Shown: piece after piece, positions 17,759 through 28,844 of the stretch
Position numbering within the stretch: position 1 is the first letter of the stretch
Layout: the number at the start of each line of letters is the position of its first letter
Assembly (NCBI GenBank): GCA_016869675.1
Contig: VGDP01000008.1
Location: forward strand, 5,147-69,146
Length of the DNA: 64,000 bases
Reading direction: 5' to 3'
Source: Alphaproteobacteria bacterium
GTDB taxonomy: Bacteria; Pseudomonadota; Alphaproteobacteria; SP197
Position numbers and translations under genes: made by a program
Notes under the pieces: generated by a model
The model's input: only the letters and a program-made list of their open reading frames with translations
The model's database searches: none
What the model was told of the DNA's origin: nothing

Positions 17759-18946
<1,188 letters not shown>

Positions 18947-18987
18947 TCACGGGTGGCCGAGGACGGATCGCCGACCACCTTTTACCA

Positions 18988-20226
18988 TCACGATGAGGTT
19001 TGCAACCGCACCAGCCAGTCGCCCAACGGGCGCCACAGCGTCACCTCGGCGTTGCGTCCGGCCACCATGCCGACGTGCCCGGCGGCGGGGCGCAGCACGT
19101 CGGGGCCAGGCAGGGCGGCGACCAGCGCCTCGGCCGAGGCAGGCGGCACGATGCGGTCGCGCGCCGGCACCACCACCAGCGTGCGCCCGGTCCACGCGGC
19201 GGGCTCGACCGGCGCGCCGGCGATGCGCCAGGTCCCGCGCACCGGTTCGTTGTCGCCGTACCAGCCGGCCAGGCATTCCTCGGCCACGGGGCCGGCCAGG
19301 GGCACGCCGTCGTTGAGCCAGTCCTCGAGCGCCACGAACACGGCGGTCTCGGGGGCCTCGGGGTCGAGCCGGGCGAAGGCACGCATCTTGCCCGGTACCT
19401 GCAACGGGTCGCTGCCCGCCAGCAGGGTCTGGATCATGTCCACCGGCAGCACATCCAGCGCGCGCAGCGCCGCGCGCGCGCCCGGCAGGGCGAACAGGCG
19501 GGCGAAGGCCGGGGCTTCCTGGTGGAAATCCCACGGTGTCGCCAGCAGGGCGAGGCCCGCGACGTCGCCCGCCCGGCGTAGCGCCAGCGCCAACGCCAGC
19601 AGGCCACCCATGCAGTAGCCGACCACGATTGGCCGTCGGCCCGTGGCGGCCAGCACGGCGTCCAGCGTGCCTTCCAGGCGTCCCGCTACGTAATCCGTCA
19701 GGGTGAAGCGGCGCTCGACCTCGCCGGGCGCGTCCCAATCCACCAGGAACGGGCGCAAGCCGCGCCGCGCCAGGGCGCGCAGCAGGCTGCGCCCCGGCGC
19801 CAAGTCCAGGATGTAGGCGCGGTTGATCAGCGACGGCACGACCAGGATCGGCGCACCGCCGCGCGGCCGGTAGTCCAGGAGCCGCGTGGTGCCGGCGCGC
19901 CAGGCTTCACGCACGCGCGCCGCGCGCCGCGCGTAACCGTGACGGTGATAGGACCCGACGCCGTCCACCAGCTCGCGCAGGCGCCGTTCCGCCTCGGTGG
20001 CGACGGCGTGGGAGAGAGCTTCAGGATCGGCGCGCGCGAGGTCCCGGGCGAGCGCCGCGCCGGCGTCGGCCAGGCTTGGCGTCCAGGGCAGCGAGCCGCT
20101 CCTCGCAAAGGGCAAGGCGGCCAGCGAGCTCGTCGAGACGAGCCACGACGTCGCCAGGTGCAGCGGCAGGGGCCGCGGCCCGCGCCGTGCCGTTGGCGCC
20201 ACCGTCATGGTCGCCGACCGCGCCAT
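18988..20226 (-). CDS. Class III/IV PhaC-like PHA synthase-type alpha/beta hydrolase (start uncertain)
   Basis: Block-by-block similarity to the Allochromatium class III PhaC core: LINRAYILDL (vs LVNRPYMTDI), VDWDAP, TLTDYV, lipase box VVGYCMGG with Cys nucleophile, ATPWDF. It lies between phaR and phaAB. It carries a roughly 60-aa N-terminal extension relative to class III PhaC. Confidence 0.55.
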   Translation of the reverse strand: MARSATMTVAPTARRGPRPLPLHLATSWLVSTSSLAALPFARSGSLPWTPSLADAGAALARDLARADPEALSHAVATEAERRLRELVDGVGSYHRHGYARRAARVREAWRAGTTRLLDYRPRGGAPILVVPSLINRAYILDLAPGRSLLRALARRGLRPFLVDWDAPGEVERRFTLTDYVAGRLEGTLDAVLAATGRRPIVVGYCMGGLLALALALRRAGDVAGLALLATPWDFHQEAPAFARLFALPGARAALRALDVLPVDMIQTLLAGSDPLQVPGKMRAFARLDPEAPETAVFVALEDWLNDGVPLAGPVAEECLAGWYGDNEPVRGTWRIAGAPVEPAAWTGRTLVVVPARDRIVPPASAEALVAALPGPDVLRPAAGHVGMVAGRNAEVTLWRPLGDWLVRLQTSS

Positions 20227-20463
20227 GCGCGGCGGCGAACGGCGCCATGAAGCGCAGCGCCAAGTCGACCAGCGTCGGGTCGGACGCCATGGCCGCCACC
20301 TGCTGCTGCCACAGGTCGAGGAAGCGCCGCGCCAGCTCGGTCGTGTCGTCGGACCCGGTCATGAGCCGAGTATAACCGGTTCGCCCCACTGCGCGCGCGA
20401 AGGCCATCACCCGCGGGGGTCCCACCATGTATGATGGTCGGGCGAAACGAGGGAGGCGCTGAC

Positions 20464-21051
20464 ATGGCCGATGTAACCGAAGGCTCCAAGGAACGCGTCA
20501 CGATCAAGAAGTACGCCAACCGCCGCCTCTACAACACGGCGACGTCCAGCTACGTGACGCTCGACCATCTGTGCCGCATGGTCAAGGAGGGCACGGACTT
20601 CGTTGTCTACGACGCCAAGACCGGCGAGGACATCACCCACGCCGTGCTGACCCAGATCATCGTCGAGGAGGAGACCAAGGGCCCGAGCCTGCTGCCCATC
20701 GGCTTCCTGCGCCAATTGATCGGGTTCTACGGCGACAACCTGCAAAGTTTCGTGCCGCGCTACCTCGAGATGAGCATGGCGGCGTTTACGCGCAACCAGG
20801 AGGACTTCCGCAAGGTGCTCCAGGAGGCATTCGGCGGCTTCTATCCGTTCGGTCAGTTCGAGACCATGGCCAAGGACAACGCCGCCATGTTCCGCAACGC
20901 GCTCGGCATGTTCTACCCGTTCGCGCGGCAGGCCGCGGGCGCCGCGGATCACGAACCCGGCAAGGAAGGCGGCGAGGTCGGCGCGCTGCGCGCCCAGTTC
21001 GACGCGTTGCAGAAGCAGATCGACGCGCTGGCCAAGAAATCCGAACGCTGA
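20464..21051 (+). CDS. phaR: Polyhydroxyalkanoate synthesis repressor PhaR
   Basis: IKKYANRRLYNTATSSYVTLDHLCRMVKEG is the conserved PhaR N-terminal DNA-binding region. GAGGGAGG RBS 8 nt upstream of the ATG at 20464. Divergent from the PhaC-like-phaA-phaB operon. Confidence 0.85.
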   Translation: MADVTEGSKERVTIKKYANRRLYNTATSSYVTLDHLCRMVKEGTDFVVYDAKTGEDITHAVLTQIIVEEETKGPSLLPIGFLRQLIGFYGDNLQSFVPRYLEMSMAAFTRNQEDFRKVLQEAFGGFYPFGQFETMAKDNAAMFRNALGMFYPFARQAAGAADHEPGKEGGEVGALRAQFDALQKQIDALAKKSER

Positions 21052-21058
21052 GTCCGCA

Positions 21059-22378
21059 TCACAACGCCGCGAGCGCCGCCGCCGCGGCCGCCTGGCCGGC
21101 TCGCACCGCCCCGTCCATCTGGCTTAGAAAACGCGTCGCCGCCTCGGCGCCCGCCAAGTGGAGACGACCGCACGCGGCGCGCATCCCGACGCCATACGTC
21201 GTCCAGGTGCCCGTCGCCGCGGTCGACACGCAGCCACGGCTGTAGGGCTCATGCGCCCAGTAGCAGTCGGCGATGCCGAGCGGCCGTCGCGCCGGGGCAC
21301 CCAAGGCGGCGGCAAGTCGGTCGAGCATGATGGCGTGACGCTCGGCCACGGGCATGGCACCCAGCCGCACGGACTCGTCTTAGTCGATCAGGGCCGCGAT
21401 GCGTCCGGTCCCCTGGCCGATCGAACTGTCGAAGGCCTTGAACGCGGGTGTCACCAGCAGGTCGAACGGGGCGCGGTCGCACCAGAAGGGGCGCTCGTAC
21501 ACCACCTCGACCTTGATCTTGCTGCGGATCGGGAAGCGCTGCGTCAGGTAGTCGCGCTCGACCGGCAAGGGCGGGTCGTAGGCGATGCGCCCCGCCAGCG
21601 CCGGCGGCAGGGCGACGATGACTTGGCGGGCTTCGACTGTGGACGTGCGCGTCCACAGCCCCGCGCCGGATCCGTCCTGCGCAAAGCCGTGGACCGGGGC
21701 GTTCAGGCGCACCGCGTCGCCCAGTGCATCGGCCGCACGCATGGCCACGCCTTGGGAGCCGCCGACGAACAGCTCGTTGTCGTGCGGCTCCTGGCCGAGC
21801 CCGAGCATGGCCGCGAAGCCGCCGTTGGCGTGCGCGTAGAACAGCGCGTGCAGCAGCGACACCTCGGCCGGTCGGCCCATGAACCCCTCGACCACGGCGC
21901 TGACGAGCCGCTTCGCTCCATCGTGCAGGTCGGCGTCCGAGAGCCAGGACGCGACCGTCTCGCGGTCCCAGGCGCGTGCCTGGGGTGCGGTCCACGGCGC
22001 CTCGGCGGGGACCGTCGCGGCCATGGCGTCGACGGCGGCGATGCCCTCGGCGGCGGGCCCGGTGCGGGGCAGGGCGGGAACCGGCTCGGCGGGGCCCAGG
22101 TCGCGGTCGGCCGACAGGTCCTGGCCCGCGTCGGGCTTGGTGACGACGGCGATGCCCAGCTCGGCCGCCAGGGTCTTGATGGCGTCCTGGCCGGGGCCGG
22201 TCCATTCGGCGCCCAGATCCACGGCCTCGCCGCCGAGGATGGGGCTCCAGGTTCGGCCGCCCACGCGGTCGCGCGCTTCGAGCACGACGACACTGCGGCC
22301 GGCCCGAGCCACCGCGCGCGCCGCCGCCAAGCCCGACAAGCCCGCCCCGACGACGGCCACATCGACACGCTGACTCAT
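21059..22378 (-). pseudogene. Flavin-containing amine oxidase gene interrupted by an in-frame TAA (nonsense) at 21380-21382
   Basis: The N-terminal part, from MSQRVDVAVVGAGLSGLAAARAVARAGRSVVVLEARDRVGGR, is an FAD amine-oxidase. The ORF immediately downstream (21059-21370) is in the same frame. It encodes the amine-oxidase C-terminus (LHLAGAEAATRFLSQMDGAVRAGQAAAAAAL). The two are separated only by TAA. Combined length is about 440 aa, a normal MAO-family size. Confidence 0.6.
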
Positions 22379-22426
22379 GGGACAACCCGGGCTACAAGGA
22401 TGCGTATACAAGACCGAGGGTACGAA

Positions 22427-23547
22427 ATGGCCGATCGTCTTGCATCCGTGATGAGCGAAGCCGAGCGTCGGGCGGTCCGCGCGCCGCTTGCCAACGCGCT
22501 GACCTTGCCCGCCCAGGCGTTCACATCGCCCGACCTCTTCGCGCTAGAGGTCGAGCGCATCTTCCGCCGGCGTTGGACCGCCGTGATGTTCGCCGCCGCG
22601 CTACCCGGTTCCGGCGACGCGCGCCCATTCGAACTCTTCGGCATGCCGCTGTTCGCGGTGCGCGGGGCTGACGGCCGGCTCCGCGTCTTTCACAACATCT
22701 GCCCCTACGACGGCTGCTCGCCGCGCCCTACTGGGATGGCACGCCCGAAGGCCGGCCCGAAGGTCTGGGCGGACGTTCCGTGGATTTGGTCAAAGTGCCG
22801 AGCGCCGAACGGCTCGGCGTCATGTTCGTCGATCTGGACGGCGCGGCGGGTTCCATCGATTCCTGGCTCGCCCCGCTGCGCGCGCTGATCGGCCAGGACT
22901 TCGCAATCGATGCCGTCGTCGCGGCGCGTGATGCTGACGGCACCGCCCTGATCGAGGAACGCACGGTCCGCGCCAACTGGAAGACGTACCAGGAGAACGC
23001 GTCGATCAACGTTCTCCACGAATCGTTCACCCACGAGCTCTACCACAAGTCACCGGAGGTGCCGCGCATCGCGAGCGGCAAGCCCAAGTTCACCAACCAT
23101 CTCGATGGCTCACTCGTCGCCTTCAGCTATGCCGACGAGGACACGGCCAACACCTACGAACGCCTGCCGCTGCCTCACGCCGGACTTGCGCCCGACCGGC
23201 CGCCCCGACGTGGCTACTTCGCCACGCTCTACCCCAACATCAACGTTCCCACCCATAGCGTGTTCGTGAAAGTCAACCTGTGCGTGCCCATGGCGCCGGC
23301 CGAAAGCCGCCTGCATCACCTGTTCTTCTTCCGGCCCGAGGCAGTCACGCGGCCCGACTTCAACGCGATCGAGCGCCATCTGCGCGAATCGTTCCATCAG
23401 GTCTACGGCGAGGACAAGGTGGCCATCGAAGCGGTGCAGAAGGCACGCGCCTCGCCGGTCGCGCGCCAGCACTTCTACGCGCCCTTGTGGGATGCCCAGC
23501 ATCATCGCTTCAACCAACTCGTGCTGGACGACCTGGAGCGACCCTGA
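22427..23547 (+). pseudogene. Rieske-type ring-hydroxylating oxygenase alpha subunit (GbcA/stachydrine-demethylase-like), disrupted: Rieske ligands missing and frameshifted
   Basis: The N-part (frame A) runs up to ...RVFHNICPYDGC. It lacks the CxH...CxxH motif; the His ligands are absent, consistent with a deletion of about 50 aa. The C-terminal catalytic domain (22780-23547) is in a different frame. Together they total about 365 aa, against about 420 aa for intact homologues. Confidence 0.5.
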
Positions 23548-23559
23548 GGCGCACCGCCG

Positions 23560-24726
23560 CTACGCCGTGTCGCCCGCCTTGCGGTAGGGCGAGTGGTGCT
23601 CGGTCAACAAGCGGATCTCGCGGTCCACATGGGCGGCCTCGCGGCGCACGAAGTCCTCGACCGCGTGGCGCAGGCCAGCGTGGGCGATCCAATGCCCGCT
23701 CCAGGTGGGTCGGGGCAGGTAGCCGCGCGCGAGCTTGTGTTCGCCCTGGGCGCCCGCCTCGACGCGCTTCAGCTTGTGGGCGATGGCGAACTCGATCGCC
23801 TGATAGTAGCACGCCTCGAAGTGCAGGAACCGGTGGTCCTCCAGACAACCCCAGTTCCGGCCGTAGAGCACGTCCGCCCCGATCAGGTTGAGCGCGCCGG
23901 CCACAGGGACCTCGTCGCGGAACGCCATGACCAGGGCGATCCGGTCGGCCATGGTCGCGCCGATCGCTTCGAAGAAGGGACGCGTCAGGTAGGGGCGCCC
24001 CCACTTGCGTCCGCCCGTGTCCATGTAGAACGCGAAGAACGCGTCCCAGTGCGCCGGCTTGATGTCCGCTCCGGTCAGCACCGCCAGGCGCACGCCGGCT
24101 TCGGCCACGGCGCGCCGCTCGCGCCGGATCGCCTTGCGCTTGGGTGATTTCAGCGCACCCAGGAAATCGTCGAACGTGGCGTAGCCCGCGTTGTCCCAGT
24201 GGAACTGGTAGCCCTCGCGCAGCAGCAGGCCGGCCCCGGCCATGGCGGCGCGGTCCGCCTCCTCGGCGAAGGTGATGTGCAGCGACGAGACGCCTGATTC
24301 CCGGGCGATGCGGACCATCGCGTCGAGCAGCGCGCGGCGTAACCCCACGTCGCTGTCGCGCACCAGCAGGCGTGGACCCGGCACCGGCGTGAATGGCACC
24401 GCGACCTGGAGTTTGGGGTAGTAGTCGCCGCCGGCACGCTCGAAGGCGTCCGCCCAACCGTGGTCGAACACATACTCGCCCTGGGAATGGGACTTGGCGT
24501 ACATGGGCCCCACGGCGACGACGCGCGGGCCGTCCTCGACCACCACGTGGCGCGGTGCCCAGCCGGCACGCGAGGAGACGCTGCGCGACCCCTCGAGCGC
24601 CGAAAGGAACGCGTGGCAAAGGAACGGGTTGGCCGCGCCGGCGCAGGCATCCCAGTCGTCGGCCGAGATGTCACCGATCGCTCCGACGACGCGGGCGTCG
24701 AGGATCCTGGCTTCGCGGTCACCCAT
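23560..24726 (-). CDS. FemAB-like / BioF2-like GNAT-fold N-acetyltransferase (DUF482 family)
   Basis: HFEACYYQAIEFAI and GAQGEHKLARGYLP motifs as I recall them for this family. 389 aa from MGDREARI. Downstream of the ThDP enzyme on the same strand. Confidence 0.6.
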   Translation of the reverse strand: MGDREARILDARVVGAIGDISADDWDACAGAANPFLCHAFLSALEGSRSVSSRAGWAPRHVVVEDGPRVVAVGPMYAKSHSQGEYVFDHGWADAFERAGGDYYPKLQVAVPFTPVPGPRLLVRDSDVGLRRALLDAMVRIARESGVSSLHITFAEEADRAAMAGAGLLLREGYQFHWDNAGYATFDDFLGALKSPKRKAIRRERRAVAEAGVRLAVLTGADIKPAHWDAFFAFYMDTGGRKWGRPYLTRPFFEAIGATMADRIALVMAFRDEVPVAGALNLIGADVLYGRNWGCLEDHRFLHFEACYYQAIEFAIAHKLKRVEAGAQGEHKLARGYLPRPTWSGHWIAHAGLRHAVEDFVRREAAHVDREIRLLTEHHSPYRKAGDTA

Positions 24727-24760
24727 CACGCACCCCCGGTCCGCGTCGAGGCGGGGCCGA

Positions 24761-26398
24761 TCAAACGTCGAGCGCGCCCATGGCCGAGATGTCACGTACG
24801 TCGAGCATCAGGTGGATCACCGAAACGCCGTCGTGGGCGCGTGCCTCGGCCAGAGCGGGCGCGAACGCTTCGGTGCTCTCGACGCGCCACGCCTTGGCGC
24901 CGTAAGCGCGCGCCAGGCCCGCGAAATCCGGGCTGCGCAGCGCGACGCCGTGGTACTGGCCCTTGCCGGCGTAGCGGTGCTGGTGCGCCATGATCGTACC
25001 ATAGGCGCCGTTGTCGCCGACGATGACCGTCAGCTTCAGGCCTTCCTGCACCGCGGTCGCCAGCTCCTGGCCCGACATGCCGAAGCCGCCGTCGCCTACG
25101 AAGGCGGTGACGTCGGCCGTGGGGCGCGCCAGCTTGGCGCCGATCGCCGCCGGCACCGCGTAGCCCATGGAACCGATCATGGGCGCCGCCTGGGACGCCG
25201 GGTGGTCGAACGGCACGTAGCGATGGACCCAGCCCGTGAAGTTGCCCGCGTCGTTGGTTACGACACGGTCCGCCGCGAGCCCGTCGACGAACCGGCCCAT
25301 GACGGCGGGCATCGCCACCTTTCCCACAGTATGCGCCGGCGCGGCCCGGAAGTCCAGAAATTCCCGGCGCAGACCGGCGCGCCACGCCCGCCGCTCGGCC
25401 GCCGGCGGCTTGGCCAGGGCGGCGGTCAAGGCGCGCAAGCTGGGTCCGACGTCGGCCGCAATCGCCACCTCGGCCATGCGGCCGCGCGCGTGCACGTCCG
25501 GGTCGGGGTGGATCGCGATCATGGTCTGGTCGGCGCGCGGCAGCTTGTAGTCCTCGCTGGTGATAGCATCCAGGCGATTGCCCGCCACGACCAGCAGGTC
25601 GCAGCAGTCCCACAGGGCCCTCTGGTAGGGCGGCCGGCCGATGCCGAAGTGCCCCAGATAGGCCTCGTGGTCGTTGGGGAACGCGTCCTGGCAGCGGAAG
25701 GCGGAGACGACGCCCGCGCCGCCCGCCTCGGCGAAGGCGACCAGATCCGCGCCGGCGTTCTCGAAGCCGACCAGCTCGCCGGCCAGCACCAGCGGATGCC
25801 GGGCCGCCGCGATCAGCCGCGACGCCGCGGCGATGCGCTCGACGGTGGGCGCCGCCGTCGGGCGCGGGCGGGGCGCGGGGATCGCCGCGTCGCCGGCCTC
25901 GCCCTCGGTCACGTCCTCGGGCAGCGACACCACCACGGGGCCGGGGCGCCCGGCCATCGCGATCTGCAGCGCGCGCGCCGTAACCGCCGCCACCTGGTCG
26001 GCCGAGCTCGGCTCGAACACCGCCTTGGCCATGGTACCGAACATGGCGCGGTAGTCGATCTCCTGGAACGACTCGCGGTCGCGCTCGGCGGTCGGCACCT
26101 GGCCGACGAACAGCACCAGCGGCACCGAATCCTGCATGGAGCAGTGGACGCCGATCGAGGCGTTGGTGGCGCCGGGCCCGCGCGTGACCAGGGCGATGCC
26201 CGGCTTGCGCGCGATGCGGCTGTAGCCGCAGGCGGCGTAGGTGGCGCCCGATTCGTGGCGGGTCACCACCAGGCGGATGCGGTTAGCGTTCTGGCGCAAC
26301 GCCTCCAGCACCGCCAGATAGCTTTCGCCGGGCACGCAGAACGCCGTGTCGACCCCGTGGGCGACGAGGGTCGCGACCAGCGCGTCGCCGCCGTTCAC
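24761..26398 (-). CDS. Thiamine-diphosphate-dependent enzyme (acetolactate-synthase-like / benzoylformate-decarboxylase-like), about 545 aa
   Basis: TPP_enzyme N-, central and C-terminal domains; ThDP-binding motif GDGGFGMSGQELATAVQEGLKLTVIVGDNGAYG. Real start is GTG at ~26398 (VNGGDALVATLVAHGVDTAFCVPGE). The upstream 130 aa of the track ORF is low-complexity artefact. Confidence 0.75.
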   Translation of the reverse strand: MNGGDALVATLVAHGVDTAFCVPGESYLAVLEALRQNANRIRLVVTRHESGATYAACGYSRIARKPGIALVTRGPGATNASIGVHCSMQDSVPLVLFVGQVPTAERDRESFQEIDYRAMFGTMAKAVFEPSSADQVAAVTARALQIAMAGRPGPVVVSLPEDVTEGEAGDAAIPAPRPRPTAAPTVERIAAASRLIAAARHPLVLAGELVGFENAGADLVAFAEAGGAGVVSAFRCQDAFPNDHEAYLGHFGIGRPPYQRALWDCCDLLVVAGNRLDAITSEDYKLPRADQTMIAIHPDPDVHARGRMAEVAIAADVGPSLRALTAALAKPPAAERRAWRAGLRREFLDFRAAPAHTVGKVAMPAVMGRFVDGLAADRVVTNDAGNFTGWVHRYVPFDHPASQAAPMIGSMGYAVPAAIGAKLARPTADVTAFVGDGGFGMSGQELATAVQEGLKLTVIVGDNGAYGTIMAHQHRYAGKGQYHGVALRSPDFAGLARAYGAKAWRVESTEAFAPALAEARAHDGVSVIHLMLDVRDISAMGALDV

Positions 26399-26406
26399 GG
26401 GCGGCC

Positions 26407-26871
26407 TCAATCGATCTGGAAGATGGCGTCGACCTCGACGGCGACGCCCAGCGGCAGGCTGCTCGAGCCCACGGCCGCGCGGGCGTGCCGGCCCTTGTCG
26501 CCGAACACCTCGACCATCAGGTCCGAGGCGCCGTTGACGACCTTCGGATGGTCCTTGAAATCGGCGCCGGCGTTGACGAACCCGGTCAGCTTGACGCAGC
26601 GCGCCACAAGGTCCAGGTCGCCCAGCGCGGCCTTGACCTGGGCCAGGATGTTGATCGCGCACAGCCGCGCTGCCTTGGCGCCGTCCTCGACGGTGAAGTC
26701 GCGGCCGACCTGGCCGACGAACTGCGGCTTGCCGTCGGCCAGGGTCACCTGGCCGGCGATGAACAGCAGGTTGCCGCTGATGACCCAAGGCACGTAGTTC
26801 GCCACGGCCGCCGCCGGCGCGGGCAGGGTGATGCCGAGTTCGGCGAGACGGGCTTCGACCTTGCCGGCCAT
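26407..26871 (-). CDS. RidA/YjgF-family reactive-intermediate deaminase
   Basis: 154 aa, typical RidA length and pattern. It is the first gene of the minus-strand operon. Confidence 0.8.
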   Translation of the reverse strand: MAGKVEARLAELGITLPAPAAAVANYVPWVISGNLLFIAGQVTLADGKPQFVGQVGRDFTVEDGAKAARLCAINILAQVKAALGDLDLVARCVKLTGFVNAGADFKDHPKVVNGASDLMVEVFGDKGRHARAAVGSSSLPLGVAVEVDAIFQID

Positions 26872-27002
26872 TGCCGACCTCCGAGGGCTGCGATTGCCCG
26901 CAGGTGTCTAAGGACTTTGCCGGGGTGAGTCAAACCACCCCGGCCTTGACCCACATGGGGACGACCTGCAAGCTTGATGCGGGAGAAGGGGCGGCCAGTA
27001 CC

Positions 27003-28064
27003 ATGACCGATCATCGAACCCCGGGCCAGGATAGCCTGGAGATGACGCCGGCCTGGGCCGCGCACGACCGCTGCTTCATGGCGTGGCCGTGCCGCCCCGA
27101 AAGCTGGGGCGGCGAGGAGGCCATGGCGTACGCCCGCGACGCCATTGCCGCCGCCGCACGTGCCATCGCCCGGTTCGAGCCCGTGACCATGCTGGCGGAC
27201 CGGCCCCTGGTGGCCGGGGCGTCGCTTGCGTGCGGCACCGGCGTCGCCGTCATGCCGATGCCCATGGACGATTCCTTCGTGCGCGACATCGGCCCGACAT
27301 TCGTCATGGGCAAGGCCGGCGTGGCCGGGGTCGCGTGGGATTACGACGGCTACGGCGAGGCGGGCGCCGAGGGGGCGGACGACGATCGTGCGTTCGCCGG
27401 CCGTCTGCTCGACGAACTGGGGATGCGCCGCTACGCCGGTCCCATGGTCCTCGAGGGCGGCGCCATCCTGGTCGACGGCGAAGGCACGCTGATCACGACC
27501 GAATCGGTGCTGCTGGACGAGCGACGCAACGGCGGGCGCGACCGCAAGGACGTGGAAGCCGTCTTGGTCGAACAACTCGGCGTCCATCGCGTCGTCTGGC
27601 TGGCCGGCGGGCTCGAGAACGACAGCACGCGCGGCCACGTCTCGCTCGTGGCGGCGATCGCGGCGCCGGGCGTGGTGTTGGCGCTCGCCACCACCGACCA
27701 CAACGACGTCAACTACCCGATGCTCAACGAGAACATCGAACGCCTGCGCAAGGCGACGGACGCGCGCGGCCGGGTGTTCGACATCGTGCCCGTGCAGCAG
27801 CCGTCGCCCCATCGCCATGACGGCCGGCGCCTGCCGCTCAGCTACGTCAACCTTCATGTCGCCAACGGCGCGGTGATCCTGCCCACCTTCGACGACCCGC
27901 TGGACGAACAGGCGTCCCAGGTGGTCATGGCGGCGTTCGGAGAGCGCAAGGTCGTGCGCCTGCCCGCGCTCGATCTGTTCGCCTCGGGCGTCGGGCTCAC
28001 CGCCGTGACCCTGCCGCTCCCGACGGGTGCTATCCTGCCACCGGTGCCGACCTCGGAGACCTAG
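27003..28064 (+). CDS. Agmatine deiminase family protein (PAD_porph; guanidino-group-modifying enzyme superfamily)
   Basis: About 353 aa from MTDHRTPGQD. Conserved blocks of agmatine/porphyromonas-type deiminases (WLAGGLENDSTRGHV, HVANGAVILPTFDD). Substrate unknown. Confidence 0.7.
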   Translation: MTDHRTPGQDSLEMTPAWAAHDRCFMAWPCRPESWGGEEAMAYARDAIAAAARAIARFEPVTMLADRPLVAGASLACGTGVAVMPMPMDDSFVRDIGPTFVMGKAGVAGVAWDYDGYGEAGAEGADDDRAFAGRLLDELGMRRYAGPMVLEGGAILVDGEGTLITTESVLLDERRNGGRDRKDVEAVLVEQLGVHRVVWLAGGLENDSTRGHVSLVAAIAAPGVVLALATTDHNDVNYPMLNENIERLRKATDARGRVFDIVPVQQPSPHRHDGRRLPLSYVNLHVANGAVILPTFDDPLDEQASQVVMAAFGERKVVRLPALDLFASGVGLTAVTLPLPTGAILPPVPTSET

Positions 28065-28067
28065 GCC

Positions 28068-28844
28068 ATGGCCACGACCCTGCCCCGCGCGCGCTCGATC
28101 GCCACGGCTGCTCGCTTCGACGACGGCACCGGCACCCGGGCCCGCATCGGGCTGATCGCCCTGGCCGGCGACGCGACGGTCGAGCAGGACTTCCGCAGCC
28201 TGGGGCTGGGCGCCGACATCGGCCTCTATGTCAGCCGCGTGCCGTCGCTCGCGGTTACGGTCGAGAACCTGTTGATGACCGCCAAGGGCCTGGGCGGGGC
28301 GACGGCGCTGCTGTTGCCGGACCAGAGGCTCGACGTGGTCGCCTACGCCTGCACGTCGGGCGCCGTCATCGCCGGCGACGACAACGTGGCCACGGCGATC
28401 CGCGCGGTGCGACCCGGCATCCCAGTGACCACGCCGATCGGCGCGGCGCTGGTCGGCCTGGCGCGCCTGGGTGCCCGCCGCGTGGCGATGCTCACGCCCT
28501 ACGTCGAGGAGATCAACGCACCCGTGGTGCGCCACATGGCGGCCAAGGGCGTCGACGTGGTCGACATCGCGACGTTCGACCTGCTGGCCGAGGACGACAT
28601 GGCCCGCGTGACCCAGGACGCCATCGTCGAGGCGGTCGCCGGGTTGGACCACGCGCGGGCCGACGCGGTGTTCGTCAGCTGCACGGCGCTGCGCGCCATG
28701 GGCGCGATCGAGCGGCTCGAGGCTCGGCTCGGCAAGCCCGTGCTGTCGAGCAACCTCGCACTCTATTGGCACGCCCTGCGGCTGGCCGGCATCGACCTGG
28801 CGATCCCCGGCTTCGGCCGGCTGATGCGCACCGGCCTCGCGTGA
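28068..28844 (+). CDS. Maleate cis-trans isomerase / arylmalonate decarboxylase-family protein (Asp/Glu/hydantoin racemase superfamily)
   Basis: 258 aa. Two catalytic-Cys contexts: YACTSG and VSCTALR. IGLIALAGDATVEQDF N-terminal block. Confidence 0.7.
   Translation: MATTLPRARSIATAARFDDGTGTRARIGLIALAGDATVEQDFRSLGLGADIGLYVSRVPSLAVTVENLLMTAKGLGGATALLLPDQRLDVVAYACTSGAVIAGDDNVATAIRAVRPGIPVTTPIGAALVGLARLGARRVAMLTPYVEEINAPVVRHMAAKGVDVVDIATFDLLAEDDMARVTQDAIVEAVAGLDHARADAVFVSCTALRAMGAIERLEARLGKPVLSSNLALYWHALRLAGIDLAIPGFGRLMRTGLA

What the first reader, a model, noticed from the sequence alone, without database searches (positions are those of the whole stretch)
21059..23547. Two adjacent, divergently oriented catabolic genes (amine oxidase and Rieske oxygenase) are both disrupted
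The flavin amine oxidase (22378→21059) carries an in-frame TAA at 21380-21382 that splits an otherwise full-length MAO-family protein of about 440 aa. Only 48 bp away the divergent gene (22427→) encodes a Rieske non-haem-iron oxygenase alpha subunit. Its [2Fe-2S] ligand region is collapsed to ...FHNICPYDGC, with both His ligands absent. Its catalytic domain is in another frame (22780-23547). The oxygenase/oxidase pair looks like an N-methyl or amine catabolic module, possibly betaine or stachydrine type. It appears to be decaying inside an otherwise intact housekeeping region, wedged between phaR and the FemAB-like gene with only 7-12 nt convergent spacers.
Basis: partly seen in the sequence, partly recalled or inferred. 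Interest (0 to 1): 0.55.

Follow-up and report, generated by a model that had tools for sequence, protein, structure and literature searches.

The report
Two freshly broken neighbouring catabolic genes
A flavin amine oxidase gene and the divergent Rieske-type oxygenase gene next to it are real, recently formed pseudogenes, each killed by one mutation; this is ordinary gene loss, but the oxygenase belongs to an apparently undescribed family that never had the usual iron-sulfur ligands.

Summary
The amine oxidase (22378->21059) has an in-frame TAA at 21380-21382. The oxygenase (22427->23547) changes frame at 22711-22717.

These are not assembly errors. At least 22 contigs from independent metagenomes carry the truncated oxidase product. 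The 11 contigs I aligned are 99.8-100% identical to the window, have no indels, and carry both lesions.

A sister lineage (L041-L044, about 85-89% nucleotide identity) has both genes intact in the same slot between phaR and the FemAB-like gene. Against it, each gene has exactly one lesion:
- Oxidase: TAC (Tyr) changed to TAA.
- Oxygenase: an 85-nt deletion between 7-nt direct repeats (CGGCTGC).

The inactivation is recent. dN/dS against the sister is 0.11-0.15, like the neighbouring genes. Present-day polymorphism is 7 nonsynonymous to 1 synonymous in the broken pair, against 2 to 9 in the flanking genes (p=0.005).

FHNICPYDGC is not a collapsed ligand region. It is the native, conserved motif of the whole family, which lacks two of the four Rieske ligands and the bridging carboxylate but keeps the His-His-Asp iron site. 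In 15 of 38 other genomes this oxygenase sits directly after an amine oxidase, and no reductase was seen in the three annotated neighbourhoods.

Verdict: ordinary paired gene decay, with a more interesting uncharacterised enzyme family behind it.

The parts
21059..22378 (-). Flavin amine oxidase pseudogene (MAO / putrescine oxidase family). It is 439 codons long and colinear with the intact 439-codon orthologue.
   Evidence: Translation. Pfam PF01593 matches positions 1-442 of 443. Gap-free 1320-nt alignment to L041 at 85% identity. Best solved relatives are 8p84 monoamine oxidase (E=1.7e-88) and putrescine oxidase 2yg7 (E=1e-63).
21380..21382 (-). Nonsense codon TAA replacing Tyr (TAC in the sister lineage). 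It cuts off the last 106 residues, including the conserved HWAGxETA...DGA FAD-binding segment.
   Evidence: The same codon is present in L001 and in every contig that carries the 332-aa product P0122.
22379..22426 (.). 48-bp divergent intergenic region shared by the two genes. It is 47 bp in the sister lineage.
   Evidence: No sigma-70 consensus match was found.
22427..22717 (+). Oxygenase pseudogene, N-terminal part in frame 1. It covers residues 1-97 of a family that is about 402 aa long, and ends with the native FHNICPYDGC motif. Frame 1 then runs out of frame to a stop at 22886-22888.
22711..22717 (+). Deletion junction. This is the single remaining copy of the 7-nt direct repeat CGGCTGC. 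An 85-nt segment (28 codons plus 1 nt, encoding LALLRDARGLKAIEVYYHGWRYDLTG in the orthologue) lay between the two copies.
   Evidence: Alignment to the intact L041 gene shows one 85-column gap and no other indel. The result is the same against the more distant L002.
22711..23547 (+). Oxygenase pseudogene, C-terminal part in frame 3. It holds the end of the Rieske-fold domain and the whole catalytic domain with the LHESFTH...ED iron site. Gene callers report a 255-aa ORF from GTG 22780.
20464..21051 (+). phaR (195 aa). Intact flanking gene, convergent with the oxidase with a 7-nt spacer.
   Evidence: dN/dS 0.094 against L041.
23560..24726 (-). FemAB-like gene (388 aa). Intact flanking gene, convergent with the oxygenase with a 12-nt spacer.
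   Evidence: dN/dS 0.145 against L041.

Best explanation
The two genes are genuine, young pseudogenes. They are the remains of a two-gene module made of a flavin amine oxidase and a Rieske-fold non-haem-iron oxygenase-like protein. The ancestor carried this module, intact, at this exact position.

What is shown:
- Each gene was inactivated by a single event. The oxidase suffered a C-to-A change that turned Tyr TAC into TAA. The oxygenase suffered an 85-nt deletion between two 7-nt direct repeats.
- The deletion removes 28 codons, including the invariant YHG residues, and shifts the reading frame.
- Both lesions are present in every sampled member of a natural population.
- The genes evolved under purifying selection for most of the time since the split from the sister lineage. 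They now accumulate mainly amino-acid-changing polymorphisms, as expected without selection.

What is inferred:
- The deletion arose by replication slippage or microhomology-mediated repair, as its repeat-flanked form suggests.
- The two enzymes act in one pathway, so loss of one removed selection on the other, or the pathway as a whole became dispensable.
- The substrate is an amine, possibly N-alkylated.
For: 1. The lesions are real.
- L001, an independent ENA assembly, is 99.9% identical to the window over 10.8 kb with no gaps, and has the same TAA and the same junction.
- The 332-aa truncated oxidase product occurs on at least 22 contigs from JGI, Logan/SRA, ENA and NCBI samples. All 10 places shown have the same 332 + 98 aa split, and 9 have the 255-aa oxygenase ORF; in the tenth (L052) that ORF is cut by the contig end.
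- The 11 contigs I aligned (L001, L045-L054) show no indels.
- All 6 oxidase variants in the 90% cluster are 332 or 326 aa. Of 15 listed members of the 17-member oxygenase cluster, 14 are 255 aa and one is the 393-aa sister-lineage protein. No intact near-identical allele appears.

2. The ancestral state was intact and syntenic.
- L041-L044 carry FemAB-like, then the oxygenase (393 aa as called, 401 aa from its GTG start), then the oxidase, then phaR.

3. There is one lesion per gene.

4. The inactivation is recent.
- dN/dS against L041 is 0.146 for the oxidase and 0.107 for the oxygenase. Flanking genes give 0.094-0.145.
- Lineage-specific amino-acid changes are nearly symmetric: 5 versus 3 for the oxidase and 4 versus 3 for the oxygenase.

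5. Selection is now absent.
- Segregating SNPs are 7 nonsynonymous to 1 synonymous in the pair, against 2 to 9 in the phaC-like, FemAB-like and TPP-enzyme genes. Fisher p=0.005.
- The variants include G41R in the RVGGRT FAD motif and R64S in the RANWKTYQEN motif.

6. The two genes form a module.
- An oxidase homologue lies directly upstream on the same strand in 15 of 38 species-level genomes that carry the oxygenase family.
Against: - No read-level data were available, so the evidence is agreement among assemblies rather than pile-ups.
- The contigs were found through the truncated proteins themselves. A rare intact allele in the population cannot be excluded.
- The polymorphism counts are small (19 SNPs).
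- In 23 of 38 genomes the oxygenase family has no oxidase within 7 kb, so the functional coupling is not universal.
- The order of the two lesions, and whether the loss was neutral or selected, cannot be told.
Confidence: 0.9

Rival explanations
1. The stop codon and the frameshift are sequencing or assembly errors, and both genes are intact in the organism.
For: The window appears to come from a metagenome-assembled genome (NCBI MAG accessions). Single-base errors and collapsed repeats do occur in such assemblies.
Against: The 11 aligned contigs from different samples, assemblers and projects are identical at both sites and have no indels, and the truncated oxidase product is on at least 22 contigs. 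All cluster variants are truncated. An 85-nt deletion flanked by 7-nt repeats is not a typical assembler artefact. The excess of nonsynonymous polymorphism confined to these two genes is a biological signal.
Confidence: 0.01
2. The genes still work in altered form. Possible routes are stop-codon readthrough or ribosomal frameshifting, a split oxidase of 332 + 98 aa, or a stand-alone 255-aa catalytic-domain protein analogous to NdmC, which works without its own Rieske cluster.
For: The 255-aa ORF has a GTG start, contains the complete His-His-Asp catalytic domain, and has no further stops. NdmC is a precedent for a catalytic subunit without a Rieske cluster (PMC10380055). The family's Rieske-fold domain carries no cluster anyway.
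Against: The deletion removes invariant residues (Y114, H115, G116 in the numbering of A2), so frameshifting could not restore them. The truncated oxidase lacks the C-terminal FAD-binding segment. Polymorphism in the oxygenase is 6 nonsynonymous to 1 synonymous and hits conserved motifs. Among the listed hits, the only 255-aa oxygenase and 332-aa oxidase products were these near-identical ones; other shorter hits look like fragments, though their contig ends were not checked.
Confidence: 0.05
3. These are old pseudogenes that have been decaying for a long time, for example since before the split from the sister lineage, or through a long genome-reduction process.
For: dS is higher for the pair (0.47-0.51) than for the flanking genes (0.24-0.30). 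There are a few window-specific substitutions at conserved sites: oxidase R300C and W408L, and oxygenase E144K, L154M and R228H.
Against: There is only one lesion per gene over 1.1-1.3 kb. dN/dS is 0.11-0.15, the same as functional neighbours. The sister lineage is intact. Lineage-specific changes are symmetric.
Confidence: 0.04

Closest known systems
Group V (quaternary-ammonium / N-methyl) Rieske monooxygenase alpha subunits: CntA (PDB 6y8j, 6zgp), stachydrine demethylase Stc2 (3vca, 4qup) and GbcA
   Same: Two-domain architecture with a Rieske fold and a catalytic domain. They are the best Foldseek matches to a high-confidence model of an intact family member (TM 0.70-0.74). The iron ligands equivalent to CntA His208, His213 and Asp323 are conserved.
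   Different: Only about 20% identity. The CntA cluster ligands Cys86, His88, Cys106 and His109 correspond to C/V, Y/F, V/T/I and H in this family. The bridging Glu205 is an invariant Asn. No reductase or ferredoxin gene was seen in the three annotated neighbourhoods. The NCBIfam GbcA score is 63 bits against a cut-off of 670. In the window the gene is also broken.
NdmC of the caffeine N-demethylase NdmCDE complex
   Same: It is a Rieske-oxygenase catalytic subunit that has no Rieske [2Fe-2S] cluster of its own (PMC10380055).
   Different: NdmC lacks the cluster at its N-terminus and receives electrons from an extra Rieske domain on the reductase NdmD, with NdmE as scaffold. The present family keeps a well-folded Rieske-type domain (pLDDT 95-98) that lacks the ligands. 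Its recurrent neighbour is a flavin amine oxidase, not a reductase.
Bacterial flavin monoamine / putrescine oxidases (PDB 8p84, 2yg7; Pfam PF01593)
   Same: Full-length colinear homology (E=1.7e-88 to 8p84), an N-terminal GxGxxG motif, and the C-terminal HWAGxETA segment in the intact orthologue.
   Different: The window copy ends at residue 332 of 439. The substrate is unknown. The gene is usually coupled to the cluster-less oxygenase-like gene.
Unitary pseudogenes from loss of a dispensable accessory pathway in free-living bacteria
   Same: Single inactivating lesions (a nonsense change and a repeat-flanked deletion), fixed in the population, with relaxed selection, inside conserved synteny.
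   Different: Nothing essential. The case is unusually clean because both partners of a two-gene module each carry exactly one lesion and an intact sister copy exists.

Membership tests
Rieske non-haem-iron oxygenase alpha subunit (PF00355 + PF00848) | Rieske-fold N-terminal domain followed by the ring-hydroxylating alpha catalytic domain | tested here: met
   Pfam hits to both domains in the window pieces. AlphaFold model of the intact homologue P0004 has pLDDT 94. Foldseek finds CntA and Stc2 with TM 0.70-0.74.
Rieske non-haem-iron oxygenase alpha subunit (PF00355 + PF00848) | Cluster ligands C-x-H ... C-x-x-H | tested here: not met
   Alignment to HcaE and CntA pairs C-R/P-H with C-P-Y, and C-P-Y-H with V-Y-Y-H. 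Among 117 full-length homologues, none has His at ligand 2 or Cys at ligand 3, and 28 also have Val at ligand 1. The same holds in all representatives scoring about 176 bits or more.
Rieske non-haem-iron oxygenase alpha subunit (PF00355 + PF00848) | Bridging Asp/Glu three residues before the first iron His (CntA E205) | tested here: not met
   An invariant Asn occupies this position (I-N-x-L-H). E205 is essential in CntA (PMC7948474).
Rieske non-haem-iron oxygenase alpha subunit (PF00355 + PF00848) | 2-His-1-carboxylate mononuclear iron site | tested here: met
   LHE[AGS]FTH and E-D are invariant or nearly so. They align to CntA H208, H213 and D323.
Rieske non-haem-iron oxygenase alpha subunit (PF00355 + PF00848) | Dedicated reductase or ferredoxin partner | tested here: inconclusive
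   None appears among the annotated neighbours in three contexts or among the recurrent neighbour clusters I inspected in 39 loci. A partner encoded elsewhere cannot be excluded.
Rieske non-haem-iron oxygenase alpha subunit (PF00355 + PF00848) | Uninterrupted reading frame in this window | tested here: not met
   85-nt deletion with frameshift at 22711-22717.
Glycine betaine monooxygenase GbcA / stachydrine demethylase Stc2 | Score above the curated family cut-off | tested here: not met
   NCBIfam NF058607 gives 63.1 bits for the intact orthologue, against a cut-off of 670. Identity to Stc2 is 18-19% in Foldseek.
Flavin-containing amine oxidase (PF01593, MAO family) | Full-length match, including the N-terminal dinucleotide-binding motif and the C-terminal FAD-binding segment | tested here: met
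   At the level of the reconstructed sequence, the profile matches positions 1-442 of 443 at E=1.5e-53. The alignment to 8p84 covers residues 2-439.
Flavin-containing amine oxidase (PF01593, MAO family) | Single uninterrupted polypeptide | tested here: not met
   TAA at codon 333.
Pseudogene (unitary, recent) | Disruption relative to an intact orthologue at the syntenic position | tested here: met
   L041-L044 are intact in the same slot.
Pseudogene (unitary, recent) | Lesions reproducible in independent data | tested here: met
   The truncated oxidase product is on at least 22 contigs from many samples; 11 contigs were aligned at the DNA level and carry both lesions. All cluster variants are truncated.
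Pseudogene (unitary, recent) | Relaxed selection after inactivation | tested here: met
   Polymorphism N:S is 7:1 in the pair and 2:9 in the flanks, p=0.005. The numbers are small.
Pseudogene (unitary, recent) | No expression or no functional product | not testable with these tools
   This needs transcript or protein data.

The most novel reading that the evidence does not exclude
The broken pair may be a relic of an undescribed two-enzyme system. In it, a flavin amine oxidase works with a Rieske-fold, His-His-Asp iron oxygenase that has lost two of its four [2Fe-2S] ligands and the bridging carboxylate, and has no dedicated reductase. The oxygenase would therefore have to obtain its oxidising equivalents in another way. 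One possibility is that it uses the H2O2 released by the adjacent oxidase through the peroxide shunt that canonical Rieske oxygenases such as CntA can run. Another is that it acts on the oxidase's imine or aldehyde product without any external electrons. The family is a sharply bounded, diverse clade, with about 35 full-length clusters at 50% identity, and its non-canonical motifs xPYDGC and xxYHGW are conserved.
Probability: 0.3. Interest if true: 0.6.

Novelty: new member of a known kind. Interest (0 to 1): 0.3.

Why it matters
For the window itself, the result is a correction to annotation. Public records list the fragments as separate proteins: MBM3583894.1 as 'FAD-dependent oxidoreductase' and MBM3583895.1 as 'hypothetical protein'. 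They are two pseudogenes.

It is also a tidy natural example of a whole two-gene module being lost. Each partner carries one lesion, an intact sister copy exists, and the switch from purifying selection to neutral drift can be measured. Joint loss is itself evidence that the two genes work together.

The wider value lies in the family that this exposed. These are Rieske-type oxygenase homologues that keep the catalytic iron site but lack the cluster ligands, the bridging residue and any visible reductase, and they often travel with a flavin amine oxidase. If they are active, they would show a way of driving Rieske-oxygenase chemistry without the canonical electron-transfer chain.

Tried and rejected
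- Assembly error. Rejected by agreement among independent contigs.
- 'Collapsed ligand region', meaning a fusion of CPH... with CPYH. Rejected because the intact orthologue and the whole family have FHNICPYDGC natively.
- Additional hidden lesions. None were found. The oxidase alignment has no gaps, and the oxygenase alignment has a single 85-nt gap.
- Long-standing decay. Rejected by dN/dS and by relative-rate counts.
- A compensating paralogue in the window. None was found.
- Membership in GbcA, Stc2, HcaE or the anthranilate and benzoate dioxygenase families. All scores are far below the curated cut-offs.
- Promoter and terminator scan of the locus. It found nothing informative.
- Literature searches for a described cluster-less Rieske oxygenase paired with an amine oxidase, and for PDB entry 8p84. 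Nothing relevant turned up beyond the NdmC precedent and the CntA mechanism paper. The absence of hits does not prove that the family is undescribed.
- tRNA and Rfam scans of the whole window. No hits.
Full report
**1. Observation**

The region reads as the first-stage reader described it.

- On the minus strand, a 439-codon reading frame runs from the ATG at 22378 to the stop at 21059. It is interrupted once, by an in-frame TAA at 21380-21382.
- Joined across that stop, the frame matches Pfam Amino_oxidase over profile positions 1-442 of 443 (E=1.5e-53).
- Forty-eight base pairs away on the plus strand, an ATG at 22427 opens a frame that encodes a Rieske-type N-terminus ending in ...LRVFHNICPYDGC. 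After that the frame loses all homology and stops at 22886-22888.
- The rest of the homology is in frame 3, from 22711 to the stop at 23545-23547. It contains the ring-hydroxylating alpha catalytic domain.
- The convergent spacers are 7 nt to phaR and 12 nt to the FemAB-like gene.

**2. Are the lesions real?**

Yes.

- An independent ENA assembly (L001) is 99.9% identical to window 17780-28547. It differs at 11 positions, has no gap, and carries the same TAA and the same junction sequence.
- The 332-aa truncated oxidase product (P0122, 100% identical) is recorded on at least 22 contigs from JGI, Logan/SRA, ENA and NCBI data sets. All 10 places shown have the 332 + 98 aa split, and 9 have the 255-aa oxygenase ORF; in the tenth (L052) that ORF is cut by the contig end.
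- Ten of these contigs are 99.8-100% identical to the window across the stretches they cover, with no indels.
- In the 90%-identity clusters, all six oxidase variants are 332 or 326 aa. Of 15 listed members of the 17-member oxygenase cluster, 14 are 255 aa. The exception is the 393-aa protein of a sister lineage.
- No intact near-identical allele turned up in a search of 5.8 billion proteins.
- The NCBI records are MBM3583894.1 ('FAD-dependent oxidoreductase') and MBM3583895.1 ('hypothetical protein FJX36_05535'), from an alphaproteobacterial MAG.

**3. Ancestral state and the exact lesions**

- Four JGI contigs (L041-L044) are about 85-89% identical to the window at the nucleotide level.
- They have the same gene order as the window: Amdase, PAD-like, RidA-like, TPP enzyme, FemAB-like, oxygenase, oxidase, phaR, PhaC-like, thiolase. 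Both genes of interest are intact in them.
- The oxidase genes align over 1320 nt without a single gap. The only disabling difference is TAC (Tyr) in the sister against TAA in the window.
- The oxygenase genes align with one 85-column gap and no other indel.
- In the sister, the deleted segment is flanked by two copies of CGGCTGC. The window keeps one copy, at 22711-22717.
- A more distant intact homologue (L002, 78% identity) gives the same 85-nt result.
- Because 85 = 3x28 + 1, the deletion explains the shift from frame 1 to frame 3.
- A repeat-flanked deletion of this kind is the classical product of replication slippage or microhomology-mediated repair. That is an inference from its form.
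- The sister's oxygenase really starts at a GTG eight codons upstream of the called ATG (MHDRLASLMSAAER...). This matches the window's MADRLASVMSEAER and the family length of about 402 aa.

**4. Age and selection**

- Nei-Gojobori dN/dS between the window and L041 is 0.146 for the oxidase and 0.107 for the oxygenase. The flanking genes give 0.094 (phaR), 0.145 (FemAB-like) and 0.133 (TPP enzyme).
- When amino-acid changes are polarised with outgroups, the two lineages are nearly symmetric: 5 versus 3 for the oxidase and 4 versus 3 for the oxygenase.
- Both genes were therefore under purifying selection for most of the divergence, and the inactivation is recent.
- Within the present population the picture reverses. 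Among 11 near-identical contigs, the two broken genes carry 7 nonsynonymous and 1 synonymous SNPs. The flanking PhaC-like, FemAB-like and TPP-enzyme genes carry 2 and 9 (Fisher p=0.005).
- The protein variants include G41R inside the RVGGRT FAD motif, W44C, and R64S inside the almost invariant RANWKTYQEN motif.
- The numbers are small, but the direction is what loss of constraint predicts.

**5.

Homologues show that it is the native sequence.
- In 117 full-length relatives the first motif is [CV]-P-[YF]-D-G-x, with Cys last in 108 of them, and it never contains His. The second motif is x-x-Y-H-G-[WL], and it never has Cys at the ligand position.
- Residue-by-residue alignments to HcaE and CntA pair C-x-H with C-P-Y, and C-P-Y-H with V-Y-Y-H.
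- CntA's ligands are Cys86, His88, Cys106 and His109. Its bridging residue is Glu205, and its iron ligands are His208, His213 and Asp323 (PMC7948474).
- In this family the equivalents are C/V, Y/F, V/T/I and H for the cluster positions, an invariant Asn for the bridge, and H, H, D for the iron site.
- An exhaustive HMMER search of 1.84 billion representatives shows a sharp boundary. Every full-length hit down to about 176 bits has the non-canonical pattern, and the hits below that are canonical CPH...CPYH enzymes.
- A model of an intact member is confident throughout, including the Rieske-fold domain (pLDDT 94, pTM 0.92). Its best solved neighbours are CntA, TM1040_3219 and Stc2.
- So the fold is that of a group V Rieske oxygenase, but two defining features of the class are not met: the cluster ligands and the bridging carboxylate. 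I therefore do not file the protein as a true Rieske oxygenase, nor as GbcA or Stc2 (63 bits against a cut-off of 670).
- The deletion in the window did remove the one retained ligand-position His and the invariant Y-H-G.

**6. The module**

- In 15 of 38 species-level genomes that carry this oxygenase family, an amine oxidase homologue lies directly upstream on the same strand.
- In about ten genomes a 234-aa alpha/beta-hydrolase precedes the oxidase. In nine genomes a TetR regulator is encoded on the opposite strand upstream of the cluster.
- No reductase or ferredoxin gene appears in the annotated neighbourhoods I inspected.
- The oxidase is closest to bacterial monoamine oxidase 8p84 and to putrescine oxidase.
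- In the window lineage and its sister, the pair stands alone and is divergent.

**7. Mechanism**

Shown:
- Two single-hit pseudogenes, fixed in the population.
- Intact synteny in a sister lineage.
- A shift in the selection regime.

Inferred:
- The two products acted in one amine-catabolic route, so when the route became dispensable, or one gene broke, the other drifted too.

Speculative:
- How a cluster-less Rieske-fold oxygenase is driven. One testable idea is that it uses the H2O2 produced by its oxidase partner through the peroxide shunt, which CntA itself can run without its reductase (PMC7948474).
- NdmC is the only precedent I found for a catalytic subunit without its own cluster. It borrows a Rieske domain from its reductase (PMC10380055), and no such partner is seen here.

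**8. Verdict**

The finding is real and now precisely defined, but as a phenomenon it is ordinary gene decay, hence the interest score of 0.3. The more novel lead is the PYDGC clade and its link to amine oxidases, which I give as the novel case. Literature searches did not find it described, but that is weak negative evidence.

Noticed in passing
window 22688-22717; loci L003-L041; proteins P0003-P0120, P0260-P0292: The whole oxygenase family natively lacks two of the four Rieske [2Fe-2S] ligands (His changed to Tyr/Phe, Cys changed to Val/Thr/Ile), and about a quarter also lack the first Cys. It has Asn in place of the bridging Asp/Glu but keeps the His-His-Asp iron site. The clade is sharply bounded from canonical Rieske oxygenases at about 176 bits.
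   Followed up: yes
L008, L011, L016, L019, L020, L022, L025, L035, L040 (about 2-3 kb upstream of the oxygenase gene in each locus): A recurrent gene cluster in other genomes: a TetR regulator (opposite strand, upstream), a 234-aa alpha/beta-hydrolase, a flavin amine oxidase and the cluster-less oxygenase. In L021, L030 and L034 the hydrolase directly precedes the oxygenase with no oxidase between them. A different subgroup (L003, L006, L007, L009, L010, L012-L014, L038, L039) instead has a convergent Metallophos protein of about 700 aa.
   Followed up: partly
L011 6159-7336; L012 5364-5744; L013 5074-5810: L011 has a second copy of the oxygenase, apparently frameshifted, directly upstream of an intact copy. 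L012 and L013 have oxygenase fragments upstream of the intact gene. Duplication and decay of this family may be recurrent.
   Followed up: no
window 21059-23547 compared with 20464-21051 and 23560-26398 (against L041): Synonymous divergence from the sister lineage is about 0.47-0.51 for the oxidase/oxygenase pair but only 0.24-0.30 for the flanking phaR, FemAB-like and TPP-enzyme genes. The cause is unresolved. It could be recombination of the cassette or stronger codon-usage constraint on the flanks.
   Followed up: no
window 21383-22378 and 22780-23547: Public annotation (NCBI MBM3583894.1 'FAD-dependent oxidoreductase'; MBM3583895.1 'hypothetical protein FJX36_05535') and several gene callers list the fragments as ordinary proteins rather than as pseudogenes.
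   Followed up: yes
window 1-64000: No tRNA or tmRNA gene and no Rfam family at gathering threshold anywhere in the 64-kb window.
   Followed up: yes
L026 (DATLAB010000018.1, 2.1 kb): A full-length member of this otherwise proteobacterial oxygenase family sits on a 2.1-kb contig binned as 'Patescibacteria group bacterium'. The contig is probably mis-binned.
   Followed up: no
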